DNA from: Patescibacteria group bacterium
GTDB lineage: Bacteria; Patescibacteriota; Minisyncoccia; Phycocordibacterales; Phycocordibacteraceae
Reading direction: 5' to 3'
Assembly (NCBI GenBank): GCA_038064595.1
Contig: JBBTSV010000005.1
Location: 612-64,611 of the forward strand
Length of the DNA: 64,000 nucleotides
In this document: in pieces, positions 31,690-37,415 of the stretch
Layout of the letters: the number at the start of each line of letters is the position of its first letter
Numbering within the stretch: the first letter of the stretch is position 1
The notes under the pieces: model-generated
Told to the model about the DNA's origin: nothing
Database searches by the model: none
The model's input: the letters and a program-made list of their open reading frames with translations, nothing else
Made by a program: the position numbers and the translations under genes

Positions 31690-31780
31690 TGATCGGTGAC
31701 CGACCATACACAATCATGACGCTATAGCGTGAAGATTAGGTATACCCGCCGCGGAAGTTTAACTTCCGCAGCACCCTTAT

Positions 31781-31843
31781 CCGCCAGCTTTTGAAATAAG
31801 CGCAGTAGCGGCGATTGACTTTTAGCATGGATAGCGCTATCCT
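31781..31843 (+). promoter_or_regulatory. Promoter-like module CCGCCAGCTTTTGAAATAAG-N14-TTGACT-N17-TATCCT
   Basis: Same 20-nt AT-rich element plus N14 plus TTGACW recurs at 32589-32628. Confidence 0.45.
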
Positions 31844-31847
31844 GAGG

Positions 31848-31906
31848 GCATAACCATAGAGAAAACCCTGTTGCATATCCGTATGCAATGGGGGTTTCTC
31901 TTTTTA
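31848..31906 (+). ncRNA. Candidate ~55-nt sRNA ending in a nested terminator hairpin plus T5
   Basis: Hairpin gagaaaaccc ... ggggtttctc enclosing ttgcata-tccg-tatgcaa, followed by ttttt; 3' end overlaps the NYN gene stop on the opposite strand. Confidence 0.3.
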
Positions 31907-32422
31907 GGGCGACGCTCTTTCAGAAAACTTGTGGTACAGATCGTTGAGGAAGACTAGGTCTGTATTTTTATTGCGAAGCAGAAATGAGCACTTTTGTTTA
32001 TTCGGAGCGATTACGCTATGCATCGCCTTATGCTCGACAAGGAATTCGACGAGGCAGCCAAAGTCGCCGTCACCGGTGACCAATACGCACTGGTCGTACT
32101 CTTTTTCATAAAACTGTGACGTTGCTTTAAGCACCAGCTCGGCGTCGCAGTTACCCTTGACCTCTCCATCTACCGAGATTGTTTGCTTGAAGATAAGAAT
32201 GAAGCCGCACTGCTGCAAATGCTCATACAGCTTCGTTTTGCCGGGAATAAGACCGATGAAGAGATAGACATTGGTCGGGTTGTACTTTTGGCGTAGCCAC
32301 CCACGGAACTTTTTGTAGTCGATACGGAACCCGAGCTCGGCAGAGGCGCGATGCAGATTTGCGCTGTCGATATAGACGTTGATGCGAGCGGCGTCCATGC
32401 CGTAAGCATAGCAGATCACCAC
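31904..32422 (-). CDS. NYN-domain (LabA/PIN-like) ribonuclease family protein
   Basis: INVYIDSANL ... GNCDAELVLKA ... VLVTGDGDF match the NYN acidic motifs; likely start at MDAAR (32398). Confidence 0.7.
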   Translation of the reverse strand: MVICYAYGMDAARINVYIDSANLHRASAELGFRIDYKKFRGWLRQKYNPTNVYLFIGLIPGKTKLYEHLQQCGFILIFKQTISVDGEVKGNCDAELVLKATSQFYEKEYDQCVLVTGDGDFGCLVEFLVEHKAMHSVIAPNKQKCSFLLRNKNTDLVFLNDLYHKFSERASP

Positions 32423-32425
32423 GTT

Positions 32426-32501
32426 CCCCTAGGACCGTCCTAGGGGGATCATCCACGGTGAGACTATCCGCAAGGTGTCACCTCGAGGTGACACCTTGCG
32501 G
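32426..32501. promoter_or_regulatory. Operator-like palindromes: 21-bp (cccctaggac c gtcctagggg) and a perfect 34-bp palindrome (ccgcaaggtgtcacctc|gaggtgacaccttgcgg)
   Basis: Located between divergent NYN gene and the 32702 gene. Confidence 0.55.
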
Positions 32502-32588
32502 AATAAATATACAGATCGGATTCGGTAGGGGAGGTGCTGGGGATGCTCAAGGCAGCATCGCCGAGGGCCGGACCGCCGCGATCCTCTT

Positions 32589-32651
32589 CCGCCACCTTTT
32601 GAAATAAACTTAGTTAGGCTGTTTGACAGTACATACGCAATGTGCTATAAA
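32589..32651 (+). promoter_or_regulatory. Promoter CCGCCACCTTTTGAAATAAA-N14-TTGACA-17-TATAAA
   Basis: Canonical -35/-10 with upstream AT-rich UP-like element; ~45-nt leader with AGGAGA SD before ATG 32702. Confidence 0.55.
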
Positions 32652-32701: not shown

Positions 32702-33334
32702 ATGTCCCATAGCAACGCAAGAACTGGTGCCAGTGTTCCGCTTCTCACGCAAAAGCTGGCGCAGACTGGCCTCTACGAGTTACTGAATCTCGACGGCGGG
32801 TTCACAGACAAGAAGCTGTACTGGAGCCAACGTGATTGCAACGAGTGTGTTCTCGAGGAGCATCCGTTCGGGCTTGATACGTCCACGGGCTCGGAAACGC
32901 AATTGGATCATGGGGTCCGACTCATCGCATGCGATGGCGGCACCGACACTTCGGTCAAGGCGATGAAGCTCATGCTCGGCCATCATGCCGCGGTCCATCC
33001 CGTCAGCGGCCGCTTAGACTTCCGTCTGCGGATCATCCGCATCCGGAAAGCCGCAGAACATTGGGAGCGCCCGGGGCAATTCATCCACGACCTGTACTTC
33101 GAGCTGATCACCTGCGTCGGGAGCTTCATGTGCGGTGGCGTCAACGACCATACCGGCGAAGGCGGGTACGGCGGAGAGCAGTTGGAGGCAATCTTCCGCT
33201 TCATCGCCGCTCTCTACGACAAGCCGCTCGAAGAAGTCGTGATCCCCCAGGCCGACGCCGAGCCAGCACGGCGGAAGCTATCCGCCGCATACGGCAAGTT
33301 TGTCGAGCGGAAGAGGAGTGCGGTGGAAGCGTGA
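32702..33334 (+). CDS. Hypothetical Cys/His-rich protein (210 aa), unknown family
   Basis: Own promoter and terminator; CNEC, IACDGG, CVGSFMCGG clusters; CTG/CCG/CGG codon bias unlike core genes. Confidence 0.5.
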   Translation: MSHSNARTGASVPLLTQKLAQTGLYELLNLDGGFTDKKLYWSQRDCNECVLEEHPFGLDTSTGSETQLDHGVRLIACDGGTDTSVKAMKLMLGHHAAVHPVSGRLDFRLRIIRIRKAAEHWERPGQFIHDLYFELITCVGSFMCGGVNDHTGEGGYGGEQLEAIFRFIAALYDKPLEEVVIPQADAEPARRKLSAAYGKFVERKRSAVEA

Positions 33335-33354
33335 CCTGGGCAGTACCTTCACGA

Positions 33355-33394
33355 AGGCCCACGATTAGGCTCATAGCCAGATCGTGGGCCTTTT
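33355..33394 (+). terminator. Rho-independent terminator
   Basis: aaggcccacgat...atcgtgggcctttt. Confidence 0.55.
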
Positions 33395-33443
33395 CGTTTC
33401 CTATGACGAAGGGGTTGTGGGACGAAATGATATACTGGGGACC

Positions 33444-34265
33444 ATGACGGTCGCCGAGAGAAAAATCCTTTCTGTAGTCGCCCAAAAACCTTATTTCTTG
33501 AAGGACAACTTCGTTCTATATCACGGAGACTCAATAAACGTTCTCGCGCAGCTGCCCGAGAATTCGATCGACATGATCTTCGCCGATCCGCCGTACAATC
33601 TCTCCAATGGCGGCTTCACGGTGCACGCCGGACGCATGGTGAGCGTCAACAAAGGTGTCTGGGACATTAGCAAAGGATTTGAAGACGATTACGCCTTCCA
33701 CTATCGTTGGCTTGAGGCCTGCAAGCGCGTTTTGAAGCCTGAGGGCACACTCTGGGTGAGCGGCACCTATCACTCTATCTATCAGTGCGGTCATGCACTC
33801 CAATCCCTCGGCTACCATATCCTCAACGACATTTCATGGTTCAAGCCGAATGCCTCGCCAAACTTGAGCTGCCGATTCTTCACCGCGAGCCACGAGACAA
33901 TCGTCTGGGCGCGCAAAGATAAGAAGGCAAAACATACTTTCAATTATGAGCTAATGAAAGAAGGGAACTGGCCCGAGGATCAGTTGAAGAAGCCGGGACT
34001 CCAGATGCGCTCCGTATGGTCCATGGGCACCCCTCGCCCGGAGGAGAAGAAATACGGCAAGCATCCCACCCAGAAGCCGCTCGACCTGCTCAAGCGCATA
34101 GTGCTTTCGAGCACCAACAAAGGTAACGTCGTCCTCGACCCATTTACAGGCAGCTCCACGACGGGCATCGCCGCCGCTCTAAATGGGCGTAAATTCATCG
34201 GCATAGACATGGAAAAGAAGTACCTTGATCTTTCAATAAAAAGATTTAATGATCTTCGTGTATGA
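33444..34265 (+). CDS. Beta-class (DPPY then FxGxG) DNA N6-adenine/N4-cytosine methyltransferase
   Basis: IFADPPYNL motif IV upstream of DPFTGSSTTG motif I; ATG follows GATATACTGG; stop overlaps next gene. Confidence 0.85.
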   Translation: MTVAERKILSVVAQKPYFLKDNFVLYHGDSINVLAQLPENSIDMIFADPPYNLSNGGFTVHAGRMVSVNKGVWDISKGFEDDYAFHYRWLEACKRVLKPEGTLWVSGTYHSIYQCGHALQSLGYHILNDISWFKPNASPNLSCRFFTASHETIVWARKDKKAKHTFNYELMKEGNWPEDQLKKPGLQMRSVWSMGTPRPEEKKYGKHPTQKPLDLLKRIVLSSTNKGNVVLDPFTGSSTTGIAAALNGRKFIGIDMEKKYLDLSIKRFNDLRV

Positions 34266-34882
34266 AAATTGTTACGCGTACTATAGCAATAAGAAATTTG
34301 AAGAAATACATCGGGAAAGATTTGCGTCCACTCGCACTCAAGCATGGCATAACTACCTACGAGACCGGAAAGCAAAACAAAGGTTGGAAAGGTTTAGTTT
34401 TAGGACCATTGGCAGGTCTAACGAATAATAATTTGAAGGCCCCAAATGGCTTAGGTTTTGAGTTAAAGTCAGTTGCTTTCCATAAAGTAAAGGGCGAGCT
34501 CGTACCCAAGGAAACAATGGCGATCACAATGATCAACCCCAATGAGCTGCGGAAACACACATTCTATAAGAGCCACTGTTGGGAGAAACTGAAAGGCTTA
34601 GTTTTCTGTGCGGTTGAGTGGAGTGGCAAAAACTCTGGGGAAGCGAGGTTGCTCAAAGTGGCGAGCTTGGATTTTGCTGAAGATGACAAGCTTATAAAAG
34701 AGGTTAAGGCAGATTACGATCTCATTCGTAAAAAGCTAATTGCGGAAGGTTTCGACGCCTTGACGGGCAAGGACGGTAAATGGATACAAGCTCGAACCAA
34801 AGGATCCGGGCACGGTTCCACTAGCCGTGCATTCTATGCACGTACCTCATTCGTAAAGAAAATTTTCGAAACAGCAAGTTGA
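34262..34882 (+). CDS. MutH/Sau3AI-family type II restriction endonuclease (GATC-family fold)
   Basis: NKGWKG, GLGFELKSV and AFYARTSFVKKIF parallel E. coli MutH DKGWVG, ALGVELKTIP, RGFYLKKNFT. Confidence 0.7.
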   Translation: MKIVTRTIAIRNLKKYIGKDLRPLALKHGITTYETGKQNKGWKGLVLGPLAGLTNNNLKAPNGLGFELKSVAFHKVKGELVPKETMAITMINPNELRKHTFYKSHCWEKLKGLVFCAVEWSGKNSGEARLLKVASLDFAEDDKLIKEVKADYDLIRKKLIAEGFDALTGKDGKWIQARTKGSGHGSTSRAFYARTSFVKKIFETAS

Positions 34883-34889
34883 AGTCAAT

Positions 34890-35504
34890 ATGGAACTCCT
34901 TTACATAACTTTAGGATGGTTGTTTGGCTTACTCACGCCTCCCATTTCTTCTAGAATAGACAGAAAATATAAAGAAAAAGACTTTAGATTTGCAATATGT
35001 TCGGAGCTCAAAAATCTTGCTACTAGGATCGCGGGGCTTTCCTTTAAAGTCCATCTTCATTTGGGGAGTTTAGACAAACCATCATTAAGGTGGATTGGGG
35101 ATGTCTATAAAAAGTACAATGATGGCATGGTAACACCTGAAATGGAAAAAATATTCGGAGCGTCAGATGCAGATTTTAAAACGGTAATGGAGAAATATAA
35201 AGCATCTGAAAACAGATCGCTTGCTATCAAGACTTTCTCACTCCCAGTTATGGACTCTTTGTTGGGAGACATATGGGTTTTTGATTCACAATTTCAACGA
35301 GAAATCTTGGAATTGAGAAGTCAGGTGGATATTTTAAATCAAGAAATTGAAAATTGCATGCAATACTTTTTTCTAACTTTTGACCCTAGTACAATGAGTG
35401 CAAATGCGACTGTTTTAAATACGAATCTAAAAGAGAGTCACGGACTCATTGCAGACAGATGTAAAATTGTAGTGAGTAAAATTGACGTGATTATTGATAA
35501 ATAA
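34890..35504 (+). CDS. Hypothetical protein, very AT-rich gene, N-terminal TM helix
   Basis: 204-aa ORF; clearly AT-rich by eye in a higher-GC genome. Confidence 0.5.
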   Translation: MELLYITLGWLFGLLTPPISSRIDRKYKEKDFRFAICSELKNLATRIAGLSFKVHLHLGSLDKPSLRWIGDVYKKYNDGMVTPEMEKIFGASDADFKTVMEKYKASENRSLAIKTFSLPVMDSLLGDIWVFDSQFQREILELRSQVDILNQEIENCMQYFFLTFDPSTMSANATVLNTNLKESHGLIADRCKIVVSKIDVIIDK

Positions 35505-35532
35505 CACTTCGTTTTGTGGTATCGTACAGAGC

Positions 35533-35628
35533 ATGAATACAGGAGGAGAAGATGGGGGAGGGAAACCGGTGCTGGTGTCGGGGGTGAAGCCGACGGGGGA
35601 GCTGCATATCGGGAAGGGTGTATTATAA
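35533..35628 (+). pseudogene. Duplicated trpS promoter plus first 27 codons, running into an early stop (31-aa remnant)
   Basis: ~97 bp at ~35512-35608 is ~96% identical to 36417-36514 (the trpS start); reads MNTGGEDGGGKPVLVSGVKPTGELHIGKGVL*. Confidence 0.6.
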
Positions 35629-35633
35629 AGCGA

Positions 35634-36278
35634 GTGAAAACATTATTTGTTGACGAATCGGGCAATCTTGGGACAAAAGATCGATACTTTGTGCTCGTTC
35701 TATTTGCTCCTCAACGGAGCAAGCGCGTAGTGAATTTTATGAGGAAGTTCTGTGCCACAAATAAGCTGTCTGAAGTGAAGGCGAGCAGACTGTCTTTCCC
35801 TCAAAAGCAAGAGATTTTTAATAAACTCTGCAGTGCCAATGACTATACGATTTCATACATCGTCGCGGATAAGCAGAATATTGATAATAAGAAATTGTTT
35901 GAGGATAAAAACCTCTGCTACAACTACTTGTTTTCGTTCTTGGTGAAAAAGACCATAAAAAGTTCCCCGGAAGATCTGTCCATTCTGCTTGATAATCACT
36001 CGACTAAGGTCGGTTCTATTAACTCTCTTTCTGACTACATTAAGATAAAAGCGTTTACGCAGTTTGGCTACCAGCATAACCTGCAAATTGCGTACACAAA
36101 CTCGGAACATTCCAAGGTGGTGCAGGCGGTTGATGTGATTGCGAATGCAATTTGGGCGCATTACAACTATGGTGCGAGCCATTTCTATAACATGCTGACG
36201 ATCAGTGAATCGATTCGATTTCCGCAGAACAAATTTGGACAAAATCTCGTTATCCCCACGGCTCCTATCTCACCTTGA
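35634..36278 (+). CDS. DUF3800-like protein
   Basis: GTG start; KTLFVDESGNLG N-terminus typical of DUF3800; AT-rich gene; ORF-track entry 35514 is an out-of-frame read through the trpS repeat. Confidence 0.55.
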   Translation: MKTLFVDESGNLGTKDRYFVLVLFAPQRSKRVVNFMRKFCATNKLSEVKASRLSFPQKQEIFNKLCSANDYTISYIVADKQNIDNKKLFEDKNLCYNYLFSFLVKKTIKSSPEDLSILLDNHSTKVGSINSLSDYIKIKAFTQFGYQHNLQIAYTNSEHSKVVQAVDVIANAIWAHYNYGASHFYNMLTISESIRFPQNKFGQNLVIPTAPISP

Positions 36279-36377
36279 TTTTATCTGCAATTTCATATAC
36301 TATTAACTTGATGTAAATCCGGTGTGGAGCTTATAGCAAGTAAGTGGCGTATTCCGTCACCGAAACACTGGTAATCT

Positions 36378-36402
36378 AGAAAAGCCCTGCGGGGCTTTTC
36401 TG
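36378..36402 (+). terminator. Rho-independent terminator upstream of trpS
   Basis: gaaaagccctgcggggcttttctgcttt. Confidence 0.55.
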
Positions 36403-36437
36403 CTTTCTAGGTTAATTTTTGTGGTATCGTACAGAGC

Positions 36438-37415
36438 ATGAATACAGGAGGAGACAATGGGGGAGGGAAGCCGGTGCTGGTGTCGGGGGTCAAGCCGACG
36501 GGGGAGCTGCATATAGGCAACTACTTTGGCGCGATGCGCCAGTTTGTCGAGCTGACCAAGGAGGGCAAGTATCGGCCCTTCGTCTTTGTCGCCGACTATC
36601 ACGCGCTCAACTCGGTGCAGGATCAGGGGGAGATGAAGCGGCGCACCCGAGAGGTGGTGATGGCCTACCTCGCTATCGGGCTCGACCCCGAGCAGGTGAC
36701 GATCTTCAAGCAGTCGGAGGTCCCGGCGCACACCGAGCTCTGCTGGATCTTCGACACCCTCACCACGATGCCGTATCTCATGCGCGCGCACGCCTTCAAG
36801 GATGCCGAGGCCAAGAATAAGGAGATCAATGTCGGGACCTTCAACTACCCGATCCTCATGGCTGCCGATGTCCTCCTCTATGACGCCGCCGTGGTGCCAG
36901 TGGGGCAGGATCAGAAGCAGCATATCGAGATCATGCGCGACATCGCAGAGAAGTTTAACCGGATATATAAAACGGAGGTGTTCAAGCTCCCCGAGCCCAT
37001 GATCGTGCCCGAGGTGGCGGTGGTGCCGGGCACTGATGGCGGCAAGATGAGTAAGAGCGAGGGCAACGTGATCCCCCTCTTCGGCACACGCGACGAGCTC
37101 GCGAAGGCGGTGATGAGTATTGTCACTGACTCTGCTGGCGGCCGGCCGGAGAATGTCTACGCTATCCATAAACTAGTGCGCAGCGAGCAGGAGCTCGAGG
37201 CAGTCTATGCCGAGCACGAAGGGAATTACAAAATGCTCAAAGAAATTTTGATTGAGGATCTCGACCGCGTTCTCGCGCCTATGCGCGCGAAGTATGAGGC
37301 GCTCAAGGAGGACTCGAGAGAGGTGGACGTGATCCTCGGCCGCGGTGGGCAAGTGGCACGTGAGGTGAGCGAGGCCAAGATGGCGCAGGTCCGCGCAGCG
37401 ATCGGGGTTGCATAA
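36438..37415 (+). CDS. trpS: Tryptophanyl-tRNA synthetase
   Basis: GELHIGNYFGA (HIGH) and KMSKS motifs; ATG 7 nt after GTGGTATCGT -10-like motif; alternative GTG start at 36483. Confidence 0.9.
   Translation: MNTGGDNGGGKPVLVSGVKPTGELHIGNYFGAMRQFVELTKEGKYRPFVFVADYHALNSVQDQGEMKRRTREVVMAYLAIGLDPEQVTIFKQSEVPAHTELCWIFDTLTTMPYLMRAHAFKDAEAKNKEINVGTFNYPILMAADVLLYDAAVVPVGQDQKQHIEIMRDIAEKFNRIYKTEVFKLPEPMIVPEVAVVPGTDGGKMSKSEGNVIPLFGTRDELAKAVMSIVTDSAGGRPENVYAIHKLVRSEQELEAVYAEHEGNYKMLKEILIEDLDRVLAPMRAKYEALKEDSREVDVILGRGGQVAREVSEAKMAQVRAAIGVA

What the first reader, a model, noticed from the sequence alone, without database searches (positions are those of the whole stretch)
33444..34882. Type II R-M candidate: beta-class DPPY methyltransferase overlapping a MutH/Sau3AI-fold endonuclease
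The methyltransferase has motif IV (DPPY) before motif I (FTGSSTTG), making it an N6A/N4C beta-class enzyme. The downstream ORF overlaps its stop (ATGA). That ORF parallels E. coli MutH at three signature blocks (DKGWVG / GVELKTIP / GFYLKKNF). MutH-fold restriction enzymes such as Sau3AI cut at GATC, so GATC or a related site is a reasonable specificity guess. A Dam/MutH-style repair module is less likely because no mutS or mutL is in the window and the methyltransferase is not Dam-like alpha class.
Basis: partly seen in the sequence, partly recalled or inferred. Interest (0 to 1): 0.55.

Follow-up and report, generated by a model that had tools for sequence, protein, structure and literature searches.

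The report
GATC restriction-modification cassette, nuclease likely dead
This is a two-gene DNA restriction-modification module, probably specific for GATC, that is widespread in ultrasmall Patescibacteria; in this genome the methylase looks intact but the cutting enzyme has lost a key catalytic residue, so the finding is a well-supported but fairly ordinary defence module.

Summary
A 273-aa beta-class (DPPY before FxGxxG) N6/N4 methyltransferase (33444-34265) overlaps by ATGA a 206-aa MutH/Sau3AI-fold endonuclease (34262-34882).

The pair is a conserved cassette. The methylase lies directly upstream of the endonuclease in 79 of 79 testable Patescibacteria genomes, in varying neighbourhoods.

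GATC is supported from three sides:
- The methylase is 52% identical, end to end, to the DpnA-type methylase of the LlaDCHI/DpnII-type plasmid pSRQ700.
- More distant relatives of the endonuclease pair with Dam-class methylases.
- The endonuclease keeps the MutH residues tied to GATC recognition, including the methyl-sensing Tyr212.

It is not MutH: it lacks the MutL-responsive hairpin, scores far below MutH cut-offs, and is distributed like a mobile gene. It is not Sau3AI either: it has no effector domain and no C5 methylase partner.

New here: this copy alone, against 119 and 80 relatives, has Gly-Pro where all the others have Glu (and nearly all Arg), at the equivalent of MutH Glu56. MutH E56A is catalytically dead. 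The variant recurs in several samples, and the methylase is intact. So this genome probably methylates GATC but no longer restricts.

The finding is a new variant of a known kind, of modest interest.

The parts
33444..34265 (+). M gene: a 273-aa beta-class N6-adenine DNA methyltransferase of the DpnA / M.LlaDCHIB type. It looks intact.
   Evidence: PF01555 E=1.2e-59. 52% identity over 270 aa to the middle methylase of pSRQ700. PADLOC MTase_II E=4e-98. Only one private substitution (D228N) at conserved columns, which is within the normal range.
33585..33596 (+). Motif IV, DPPY (catalytic motif).
   Evidence: Read from the sequence. Conserved across 75 homologues.
34143..34166 (+). Motif I, FTGSSTTG (AdoMet binding). 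It lies after motif IV, which is the beta-class order.
   Evidence: Read from the sequence. GSSTTG is the family consensus.
34262..34265 (+). ATGA overlap of the M stop codon and the R start codon, indicating translational coupling.
   Evidence: Sequence and ORF table.
34262..34882 (+). R gene: a 206-aa single-domain MutH/Sau3AI-fold endonuclease.
   Evidence: PF02976 E=4.3e-10. NCBIfam Sau3AI 6e-14 and MutH 2.4e-12, both far below their cut-offs. Foldseek finds MutH at TM 0.67 and Sau3AI. A family profile hits Sau3AI at 2e-20. 3678 homologues.
34403..34408 (+). Codons 48-49, GGA CCA (Gly-Pro). Relatives have Glu-Arg here. Position 48 is the equivalent of MutH Glu56, the metal-B ligand, so this is the probable inactivating lesion.
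   Evidence: E in 119/119 other top hits and in 80/80 GTDB representatives. Aligned to MutH E56. MutH E56A is described as catalytically dead. The same protein occurs in several independent samples.
34442..34447 (+). Pro61-Asn62, the 'PD' position of the PD-(D/E)XK motif (equivalent to MutH Asp70). It is Asn throughout the Patescibacteria subfamily.
   Evidence: N in 120/120 and 81/81. D and N are mixed (52 to 18) across the wider family.
34460..34468 (+). Glu67-Leu-Lys69, the (D/E)XK catalytic motif (equivalent to MutH E77/K79).
   Evidence: Invariant. Alignments.
34793..34840 (+). The R178-T-K180...F191-Y192 segment, equivalent to the MutH 184-190 GATC-recognition loop and the methyl-sensing Tyr212. 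About 14 residues are missing where MutH has its 192-207 hairpin.
   Evidence: Alignments. Residue roles from PMC10940147, PMC3848065 and the cryo-EM preprint.
34164..34262 (.). Compositional break. Third-codon-position GC (GC3) falls from about 0.6-0.8 over most of M to about 0.3-0.6 in R, suggesting a mosaic cassette.
   Evidence: In 79 other loci GC3(M) minus GC3(R) is 0.006 with SD 0.051 and maximum 0.169. Here the difference is 0.19.

Best explanation
The two genes form a Type IIP restriction-modification cassette that most likely targets GATC.

**How it normally works (inferred).** The upstream enzyme is a DpnA-type beta-class methyltransferase that would make G(m6A)TC. The downstream enzyme is a small single-domain, presumably monomeric, MutH-like nuclease. 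It would cut unmethylated GATC one strand at a time, and adenine methylation would block it through a conserved Tyr equivalent to MutH Tyr212. It needs neither MutL nor a Sau3AI-type effector domain.

**Distribution (shown).** The cassette is strongly conserved and scattered across Patescibacteria in changing genomic positions.

**This genome (partly shown, partly inferred).** The methylase is intact. The nuclease carries Gly48-Pro49 where all relatives sampled have Glu and nearly all have Arg, at the metal-binding glutamate. It is therefore probably catalytically dead or strongly weakened, which would leave a GATC-methylating genome without restriction.

Shown: gene identities, linkage, conservation and the lesion. 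Inferred: GATC specificity, m6A protection, monomeric cutting and loss of activity.
For: **Identity of the two proteins**
- Methyltransferase.
- Endonuclease.

**Linkage**
- A DpnA-type methylase lies directly upstream on the same strand in 79/79 testable GTDB loci and.
- Neighbours differ between loci and are often defence-like or mobile: HEPN, Peptidase_M78+DUF4411, a serine recombinase, and here NYN and DUF3800.

**GATC specificity**
- 52% full-length identity to the pSRQ700 methylase, which sits between a D12 Dam-class methylase and a DpnII-family nuclease. pSRQ700 carries LlaDCHI, described as related to DpnII. DpnII acts on GATC and DpnA is its second methylase.
- Relatives of the nuclease at 60% and 40% identity sit next to D12 methylases.
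- In 80 metagenome loci, 47 have a DpnA-type and 8 a Dam-type methylase directly upstream.
- MutH K48, E91, R184, K186, Y212, H112 and K116 are all conserved. Their roles are described.

**Selection**
- Synonymous differences (dS) are saturated; dN/dS is about 0.05 where it can be computed.

**The lesion**
- E48G/R49P is unique among 119 plus 80 relatives.
- MutH E56A is catalytically dead.
- The variant protein is seen in at least 5 sample sets.
- The methylase has only one private substitution.
Against: - No biochemical or methylome data exist for any member, so GATC rests on homology. 52% identity does not guarantee the same target.
- The best solved-structure match of the methylase is CcrM, which recognises GANTC by my own knowledge.
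- GATC is not under-represented in the window (403 sites, observed/expected 1.03).
- The subfamily has Asn instead of the canonical first Asp (MutH D70). Its catalytic chemistry may therefore differ from MutH, and the effect of losing Glu48 could differ too.
- The nuclease ORF is still full length, with only 4 private substitutions at conserved columns. Any inactivation would be recent, or the protein is still in use.
- The structure model has only moderate confidence (pLDDT 65).
Confidence: 0.62

Rival explanations
1. Same GATC restriction-modification cassette, but still fully restriction-proficient in this genome. The Gly48-Pro49 change is tolerated because this subfamily's active site (E-N-E-K rather than E-D-E-K) works differently from MutH, or another acidic residue takes over.
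For: - The ORF is intact and translationally coupled to M.
- There are only 4 private substitutions at conserved columns.
- The variant persists in several samples.
- Asp/Asn interchange at the first metal ligand shows some active-site plasticity in the family.
Against: - Glu48 is kept in 199 of 199 close relatives examined, and Glu or Asp in 66 of 71 sequences in the diverse alignment (64 E and 2 D, including MutH and the query).
- The homologous MutH E56A is catalytically dead.
- The adjacent Pro would also disturb the helix that carries this residue.
Confidence: 0.2
2. The pair recognises a different site, for example GANTC as CcrM and HinfI methylases do, or another GATC-like sequence.
For: The best solved-structure and NCBIfam hits of the methylase are CcrM (2.2e-59; 8.9e-73).
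Against: - The CcrM hit scores 245 bits against a cut-off of 830, and the CcrM C-terminal domain is missing.
- CcrM residues L38, L42 and R44, which I recall as recognition residues, read N, T and H here (alignment).
- The pSRQ700 DpnA-type methylase scores higher (283 against 204 bits) and aligns end to end.
- Dam-class partners of related nucleases and conserved MutH base-contact residues both point to GATC.
Confidence: 0.1
3. A methyl-directed repair or strand-discrimination module like Dam/MutH, not a defence system. The nuclease would nick the unmethylated daughter strand at hemimethylated GATC.
For: - Nearly all MutH functional residues, including the methyl sensor Tyr212, are conserved.
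- Purifying selection is very strong for a restriction enzyme.
- Some distant family members are solitary genes among housekeeping-like genes.
Against: - The tight M-R operon contrasts with E. coli, where by my own knowledge dam and mutH are unlinked.
- The distribution is sporadic: 585 matches across the 185,579 species genomes, with changing genomic positions.
- The flanks are defence-like or mobile.
- The 14 residues corresponding to the MutH hairpin that MutL pulls on are missing.
- MutH equivalog models score about 46 and 33 bits against cut-offs of 243 and 230.
- No mutS or mutL was found among the 10 large window ORFs scanned.
Confidence: 0.04
4. In this genome the nuclease-dead protein has been kept for a new job, as a methylation-sensitive GATC-binding protein used for regulation or for marking the replication origin.
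For: The full-length ORF carries an active-site lesion, but all DNA-recognition residues are intact. The variant is stable across samples.
Against: A young pseudogene-to-be looks exactly the same. There is no sign of selection specific to this lineage, because synonymous differences are saturated. No other family member shows the change.
Confidence: 0.04

Closest known systems
DpnII / LlaDCHI (MboI-type) GATC restriction-modification systems, specifically their second methylase DpnA / M.LlaDCHIB
   Same: - The methylase is the same kind: beta-class, about 270 aa, 52% identical end to end to the pSRQ700 enzyme.
- The predicted protective mark, G(m6A)TC, is the same.
- The genes are co-oriented and overlapping.
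   Different: - The nuclease is MutH-fold, not DpnII-family PF04556.
- There is no Dam-class first methylase, so the DpnA-type enzyme is the sole methylase in the Patescibacteria cassette. A few relatives do have the order Dam, nuclease, DpnA.
Sau3AI (GATC Type II restriction enzyme with two MutH-like domains)
   Same: It has a homologous catalytic domain (family profile E=2e-20; Foldseek match) and the same presumed target, GATC.
   Different: - This protein has 206 aa and a single domain. It lacks the C-terminal allosteric effector domain: only positions 12-189 of the 475-position model match, and the score is 52 bits against a cut-off of 300.
- Its partner is an N6-adenine methylase, not the C5-cytosine methylase that I recall for Sau3AI.
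- The methyl-adenine-sensing Tyr is retained.
MutH (methyl-directed mismatch repair nickase of gamma-proteobacteria)
   Same: - Same fold and size class.
- E56, E77, K79, K116, H112, K48, E91, R184, K186 and Y212 are conserved in the family consensus.
   Different: - Only about 20% identity.
- Asn replaces D70.
- The MutL-responsive hairpin 192-207 is absent.
- It is operon-linked to a methylase, mobile, and sporadically distributed.
- This copy also lacks the E56 equivalent.
BcnI / MvaI monomeric restriction enzymes
   Same: They are small single-domain nucleases related to MutH (profile hit to BcnI at 1.9e-5; weak Pfam MvaI_BcnI hit). They are the likely model for how one monomer cuts both strands in turn.
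   Different: Their targets differ (CCSGG and CCWGG). Sequence similarity is marginal. Monomeric action here is inferred, not tested.
CcrM (cell-cycle-regulated GANTC methylase)
   Same: It is the closest solved structure to the methylase catalytic domain (2.2e-59).
   Different: - This methylase has no C-terminal domain.
- The recalled recognition residues L38, L42 and R44 are not conserved.
- The score is far below the equivalog cut-off (245 against 830 bits).
- It is paired with a nuclease rather than solitary.

Membership tests
Beta-class N6/N4 amino-methyltransferases (Pfam PF01555) | Motif IV (DPPY) lies N-terminal to motif I (FxGxG), and the Pfam score is above the gathering threshold. 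| tested here: met
   DPPY is at aa 48-51 and FTGSSTTG at aa 234-241. The score is 202 bits against a cut-off of 26.7.
DpnA / M.LlaDCHIB-type GATC methylases | Full-length homology to a member that sits inside a DpnII-type GATC operon. | tested here: met
   52% identity over 270 aa, E=5e-101, to the pSRQ700 middle methylase. That gene is flanked by a D12 methylase and a DpnII-family nuclease.
DpnA / M.LlaDCHIB-type GATC methylases | Methylates the adenine of GATC, including in single-stranded DNA. | not testable with these tools
   This needs an enzyme assay or methylome data.
CcrM (NCBIfam NF050803 equivalog) | Score above the curated cut-off and presence of the C-terminal DNA-binding domain. 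| tested here: not met
   245 bits against a cut-off of 830. Only model positions 6-249 of 350 are matched.
MutH/Sau3AI endonuclease family (Pfam PF02976) | Domain score above the gathering threshold, and the MutH fold. | tested here: met
   39.8 bits against 23. Foldseek top hits are MutH (TM 0.67) and Sau3AI.
MutH/Sau3AI endonuclease family (Pfam PF02976) | A complete catalytic set E56-D70-E77-K79 plus K116 (MutH numbering). | tested here: not met
   This copy reads G48-N62-E67-K69-K109. The subfamily consensus is E-N-E-K-K.
MutH proper (NCBIfam PRK05070 / TIGR02248 equivalogs) | Score above the curated cut-off, and the MutL-responsive elements (hairpin 192-207). | tested here: not met
   46.5 and 33 bits against cut-offs of 243 and 230. 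There are 12 residues from K180 to Y192, against 26 from K186 to Y212 in MutH. The role of the hairpin is described.
Sau3AI family (NCBIfam NF040973 equivalog) | Two MutH-like domains (catalytic N-terminal, effector C-terminal) and a score above the cut-off. | tested here: not met
   51.8 bits against 300. Only model positions 12-189 of 475 match, and the protein is 206 aa.
Type II restriction-modification system | Methylase and nuclease genes are adjacent, and the linkage is conserved across genomes. | tested here: met
   ATGA overlap here. The methylase is directly upstream in 79/79 testable loci.
Type II restriction-modification system | The nuclease cleaves the unmodified site and is blocked by the cognate methylation. 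| not testable with these tools
   This needs biochemistry. Conservation of the Tyr212 equivalent is only suggestive.

The most novel reading that the evidence does not exclude
The Patescibacteria cassette could be a distinct, unusually constrained type of GATC system.

- Its nuclease would be an autonomous single-domain MutH-like enzyme with an E-N-E-K active site.
- Its only methylase is of the DpnA type, which in pneumococcus methylates single-stranded DNA.
- Such a methylase could protect DNA taken up by the natural competence machinery, which is conserved across these bacteria. That might explain why this one cassette persists at 71-81% protein identity across the whole radiation.
- In this genome, the nuclease-dead variant could be retained as a methylation-reading GATC-binding protein rather than being a decaying gene.
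Probability: 0.1. Interest if true: 0.6.

Novelty: new variant of a known kind. Interest (0 to 1): 0.36.

Why it matters
- **For annotation.** The 206-aa 'MutH/Sau3AI family endonuclease' genes annotated in thousands of Patescibacteria sequences are best read as the R half of a GATC restriction-modification pair, not as mismatch-repair genes. Their partner 'site-specific methyltransferase' is a DpnA-type GATC methylase.
- **For enzymology.** The family offers a minimal, probably self-sufficient MutH-like GATC nuclease. It may be a useful contrast to MutH (activated by MutL) and Sau3AI (activated by a second domain). It also carries a natural Asp-to-Asn change at the first metal ligand.
- **For this genome.** It is a clean natural example of a restriction-modification system losing its nuclease through an active-site substitution while keeping the methylase. 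It also predicts that this groundwater population carries G(m6A)TC. That matters for anyone trying to transform or bin these organisms using methylation signals.

Tried and rejected
- **GATC avoidance.** Observed/expected in the window is 1.03, and no 4-mer palindrome is strongly depleted. This is uninformative.
- **CcrM/GANTC lead.** Rejected. See the rival explanation on a different recognition site.
- **Asn62 as a sign of an inactive family.** Rejected. Asp and Asn alternate repeatedly across the wider family, whose members remain methylase-linked.
- **Phage carriage as the vehicle of spread.** Only 2 of 2.9 million viral contigs carry a relative.
- **Promoter and terminator scan of 33200-36600.** Counts were no higher than in shuffled sequence.
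- **Downstream genes as part of the system.** ORF3 (34890-35504) and the DUF3800 gene have no homologues beside the cassette in about 160 other loci, so they are excluded.
- **dN/dS on the window lineage.** Synonymous sites are saturated against all 57 comparators, so relaxed selection on this copy could not be tested.
- **Literature.** Ban & Yang 1998 was not available. A search for E56A papers returned noise. No Patescibacteria GATC methylome paper was found.
- **Metagenome scan.** A narrower alignment worked.
Full report
**What is there.** The window comes from a Patescibacteria (CPR) metagenome-assembled genome with about 56% GC. An identical copy of the downstream protein is annotated in NCBI as 'MutH/Sau3AI family endonuclease [Patescibacteria group bacterium]'. 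It occurs on contigs from Hainich groundwater well H41 and from several other sequencing runs.

Between a 222-aa ORF with no family hit and trpS lie four co-oriented genes:
- a methyltransferase (33444-34265)
- a MutH-like ORF (34262-34882)
- an ORF with no family hit (34890-35504)
- a DUF3800 gene (35634-36278)

- DPPY (33585-33596) precedes FTGSSTTG (34143-34166).
- The methylase stop and the next start overlap as ATGA.
- The second protein matches PF02976 MutH above threshold, the NCBIfam Sau3AI and MutH models far below their equivalog cut-offs, and E. coli and H. influenzae MutH in the PDB.
- A family profile hits Sau3AI at 2e-20, MutH at 2e-17 and BcnI at 2e-5.
- An AlphaFold2 model of moderate confidence (pLDDT 65, pTM 0.68) retrieves only MutH (TM 0.67) and Sau3AI as significant structural neighbours.

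**It is a conserved two-gene cassette.** The endonuclease has 3678 homologues at E<=1e-3. The best 120 are almost all exactly 206 aa and 76-81% identical to the query.

In one-genome-per-species GTDB data, 585 stretches encode a relative. The best 80 (71-81% identity) carry labels from many Patescibacteria lineages, among them Parcubacteria/Paceibacterota groups, Saccharibacteria, Gracilibacteria, Berkelbacteria and Curtissbacteria. A few MAGs carry non-CPR labels.

In 79 of the 79 loci that have upstream sequence, a homologue of the window's methylase (62-88% identity) lies directly upstream on the same strand. Flanking genes differ from locus to locus and are often defence-like or mobile:
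- SDH_protease with DUF6680
- HEPN_RiboL-PSP next to a serine recombinase and a Rep gene
- Peptidase_M78 with DUF4411 near type IV secretion genes
- here, an NYN gene and a DUF3800 gene with PADLOC hits

Between this genome and the one behind L001, housekeeping proteins are 33-61% identical (AspS 33, ScpB 34, ScpA 39, TrpS 61). The methylase and nuclease are 74% and 77% identical. Synonymous differences between nuclease genes are saturated, and dN/dS is about 0.05 in the pairs where it can be computed. The protein is therefore under strong, long-term purifying selection. That argues that the family is functional.

**Specificity.** The best solved structure for the methylase is CcrM, but that lead fails:
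- The score is 245 bits against an equivalog cut-off of 830, and the CcrM C-terminal domain is absent.
- The CcrM residues I recall as recognition residues (L38, L42, R44) read N, T and H in the alignment.

The closest annotated plasmid relative is the middle methylase of Lactococcus plasmid pSRQ700. It is 52% identical over the whole length (E=5e-101), including the PNLSCR(F/Y)FT segment. That gene lies between a D12 (Dam-class) methylase and a DpnII-family nuclease. pSRQ700 carries LlaDCHI, described as related to pneumococcal DpnII. DpnII restricts unmethylated GATC, and DpnA is its second methylase, active on single-stranded DNA.

Independent support comes from relatives of the nuclease:
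- Relatives at 60% and 40% identity on two viral contigs sit beside D12 methylases.
- Among 80 metagenome loci of a more distant branch, 47 have a DpnA-type and 8 a Dam-type methylase directly upstream. Five of the Dam loci also have a DpnA-like gene fragment downstream.
- That is about 55 of the 65 loci with enough upstream sequence. Two methylase classes that are known to act on the same site (GATC) in the DpnII/LlaDCHI-type systems are thus interchangeable partners of this nuclease family.

The nuclease also keeps the MutH residues tied to GATC recognition and to catalysis:

| MutH residue | Here |
|---|---|
| K48 | K40 |
| E91 | E84 |
| R184 / K186 | R178 / K180 |
| Y212 | Y192 |
| H112 | H105 |
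| K116 | K109 |
| E77 / K79 | E67 / K69 |

Their roles are documented as follows:
- K48A, R184A and Y212S abolish MutH-dependent activity; loop 184-190 and E91 contact GATC (PMC10940147).
- Tyr212 reads the methylation state (PMC3848065).
- K116 and H112 act in catalysis (bioRxiv 10.64898/2026.04.21.719898).

Retention of the methyl sensor fits protection by N6-adenine methylation. By my own recollection, not tested here, this contrasts with Sau3AI, which is blocked by cytosine methylation. GATC is not depleted in the window (observed/expected 1.03), which neither helps nor hurts.

**Why it is neither MutH nor Sau3AI.**
- MutH and Sau3AI are latent nucleases switched on by MutL in trans or by a second MutH-like domain in cis.
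- This protein has no second domain (206 aa; only positions 12-189 of the 475-position Sau3AI model match).
- It has only 12 residues between K180 and Y192, where MutH has 26 between K186 and Y212. The hairpin 192-207 that MutL pulls on therefore has no counterpart. HMMER's local alignment of this C-terminal part differs from MAFFT's. However, the length deficit and the matching R-x-F-Y-x4-F spacing favour the deletion.
- The tight methylase linkage, sporadic distribution and changing positions fit a mobile defence module, not a repair gene.
- Some distant single-domain relatives are solitary among housekeeping-like genes, so a repair-like role cannot be excluded for those branches.

**Active site.** The Patescibacteria subfamily has Pro-Asn at the 'PD' position (MutH D70) in 120/120 and 81/81 sequences. 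Across the diverse alignment, Asp (52) and Asn (18) alternate in several lineages. Many loci of a more distant branch are still methylase-linked. I therefore read Asn as a tolerated metal ligand rather than a sign of inactivity.

The window's own copy is different. At codons 48-49 it reads GGA CCA (Gly-Pro), where all 119 other top hits and all 80 GTDB representatives have Glu and nearly all have Arg. This Glu aligns with MutH Glu56. Glu56 coordinates metal B, and its replacement by Ala gives the 'catalytically dead' MutH used for cryo-EM.

The same variant protein is found on contigs from at least five sample sets. It is therefore a real, fixed variant, not an assembly error. The methylase has a single private substitution, within the normal range, and intact motifs. 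The most likely state of this genome is modification without restriction. This is the usual first step in the decay of such systems. That general statement and the loss of activity are inferences.

**Mosaic composition.** Third-codon-position GC (GC3) by gene:

| Gene(s) | GC3 |
|---|---|
| Host genes (upstream 222-aa ORF, trpS, aspS) | 0.73-0.80 |
| Methylase | 0.66 |
| Nuclease | 0.46 |
| ORF3, DUF3800 | 0.33, 0.32 |

The drop occurs near the 3' end of the methylase gene. In 79 other loci the two genes have equal GC3 (difference 0.006, SD 0.051, maximum 0.169). Methylase and nuclease identities to the window are only weakly correlated across loci (r=0.27). This suggests recombination within the cassette: an older or differently sourced M joined to a more recently arrived R and downstream genes. 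I did not test this further.

**Verdict.** This is a Type II restriction-modification cassette, most likely for GATC with m6A protection. It combines a DpnA-type methylase with a single-domain MutH-like nuclease. That differs from both the DpnII and the Sau3AI architectures, and I found no characterised member with the tools at hand. It is a new variant of a known kind, already labelled at family level in public annotation. The added points of interest are its breadth and conservation in Patescibacteria and the active-site lesion in this copy. Interest is modest.

Noticed in passing
window 35512-35615 and 36417-36520 (with 35634-36278 between them): A 104-nt direct repeat (94% identical) duplicates the trpS upstream region and its first ~29 codons. 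Copy 1 is a dead trpS stub that ends at TAA 35626-35628. Copy 2 heads the real trpS (36438-37415). Between them lie a low-GC DUF3800 gene (weak PADLOC candidate hit, PDC-M04A) and a terminator-like hairpin around 36378-36400. The layout looks like single-crossover insertion of a circular DNA carrying DUF3800 plus trpS 5' homology.
   Followed up: partly
window 31775-32627: An NYN-domain gene (31904-32422, minus strand; Pfam 1.6e-14, PADLOC NYN 3e-11; GC3 0.53 against host values near 0.78) is flanked by an imperfect 45-nt direct repeat (31775-31819 and 32583-32627, 73% identical). A perfect 36-bp palindrome (32467-32502) lies just upstream of its start. This may be another small inserted module.
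   Followed up: no
window 34890-35504: A 204-aa ORF with a hydrophobic N-terminus and 36% GC sits directly after the nuclease gene. It has no hit in Pfam, NCBIfam or PADLOC, and no homologue next to the cassette in about 160 other loci. It is found only in this population.
   Followed up: partly
window 33354-33392: An 18-nt-arm hairpin (89% complementary, 3-nt loop) followed by a T-rich run lies between the upstream ORF's stop and the methylase start. It contains a GATC. It is probably the upstream gene's terminator and leaves only about 50 nt for a methylase promoter.
   Followed up: no
L028, L033, L037, L039, L049, L057, L078, L083, L084, L087 (between the M and R genes): In about 10 of 79 Patescibacteria loci a 400-600-bp gap separates the methylase and nuclease genes. 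Six of these gaps hold a 125-186-aa ORF, of at least four unrelated kinds.
   Followed up: partly
L098-L102, L113, L147, L151, L160, L174: These more distant single-domain MutH-like genes have no Dam-type or DpnA-type methylase within 2.5 kb. In the three loci inspected (L098, L151, L147) the neighbours are housekeeping-like: a histidine kinase, peptidases and a YkuD transpeptidase. They may be orphan nucleases or true repair-type MutH relatives.
   Followed up: partly
L107, L135, L137, L159, L169: The gene order here is Dam-class methylase, MutH-like nuclease, then a DpnA-like match. This is a DpnII-like three-gene set with a different nuclease and a different order. Only in L107 does the downstream match span a full gene (247 aa); in the other four it is 54-83 aa, two of them cut by the contig end.
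   Followed up: no
L094 (contig CAWAFE010000035.1, labelled Alphaproteobacteria) and other MAGs with non-CPR labels (L038 Aenigmatarchaeota, L056/L058 Lutibacter, L075 Verrucomicrobiia, L089 Deltaproteobacteria): Cassettes with 72-77% protein identity occur in MAGs not labelled Patescibacteria. In L094 the cassette GC3 is 0.82-0.84, matching a 61% GC genome. These cases reflect either transfer beyond Patescibacteria or mis-binning or mislabelling.
   Followed up: no
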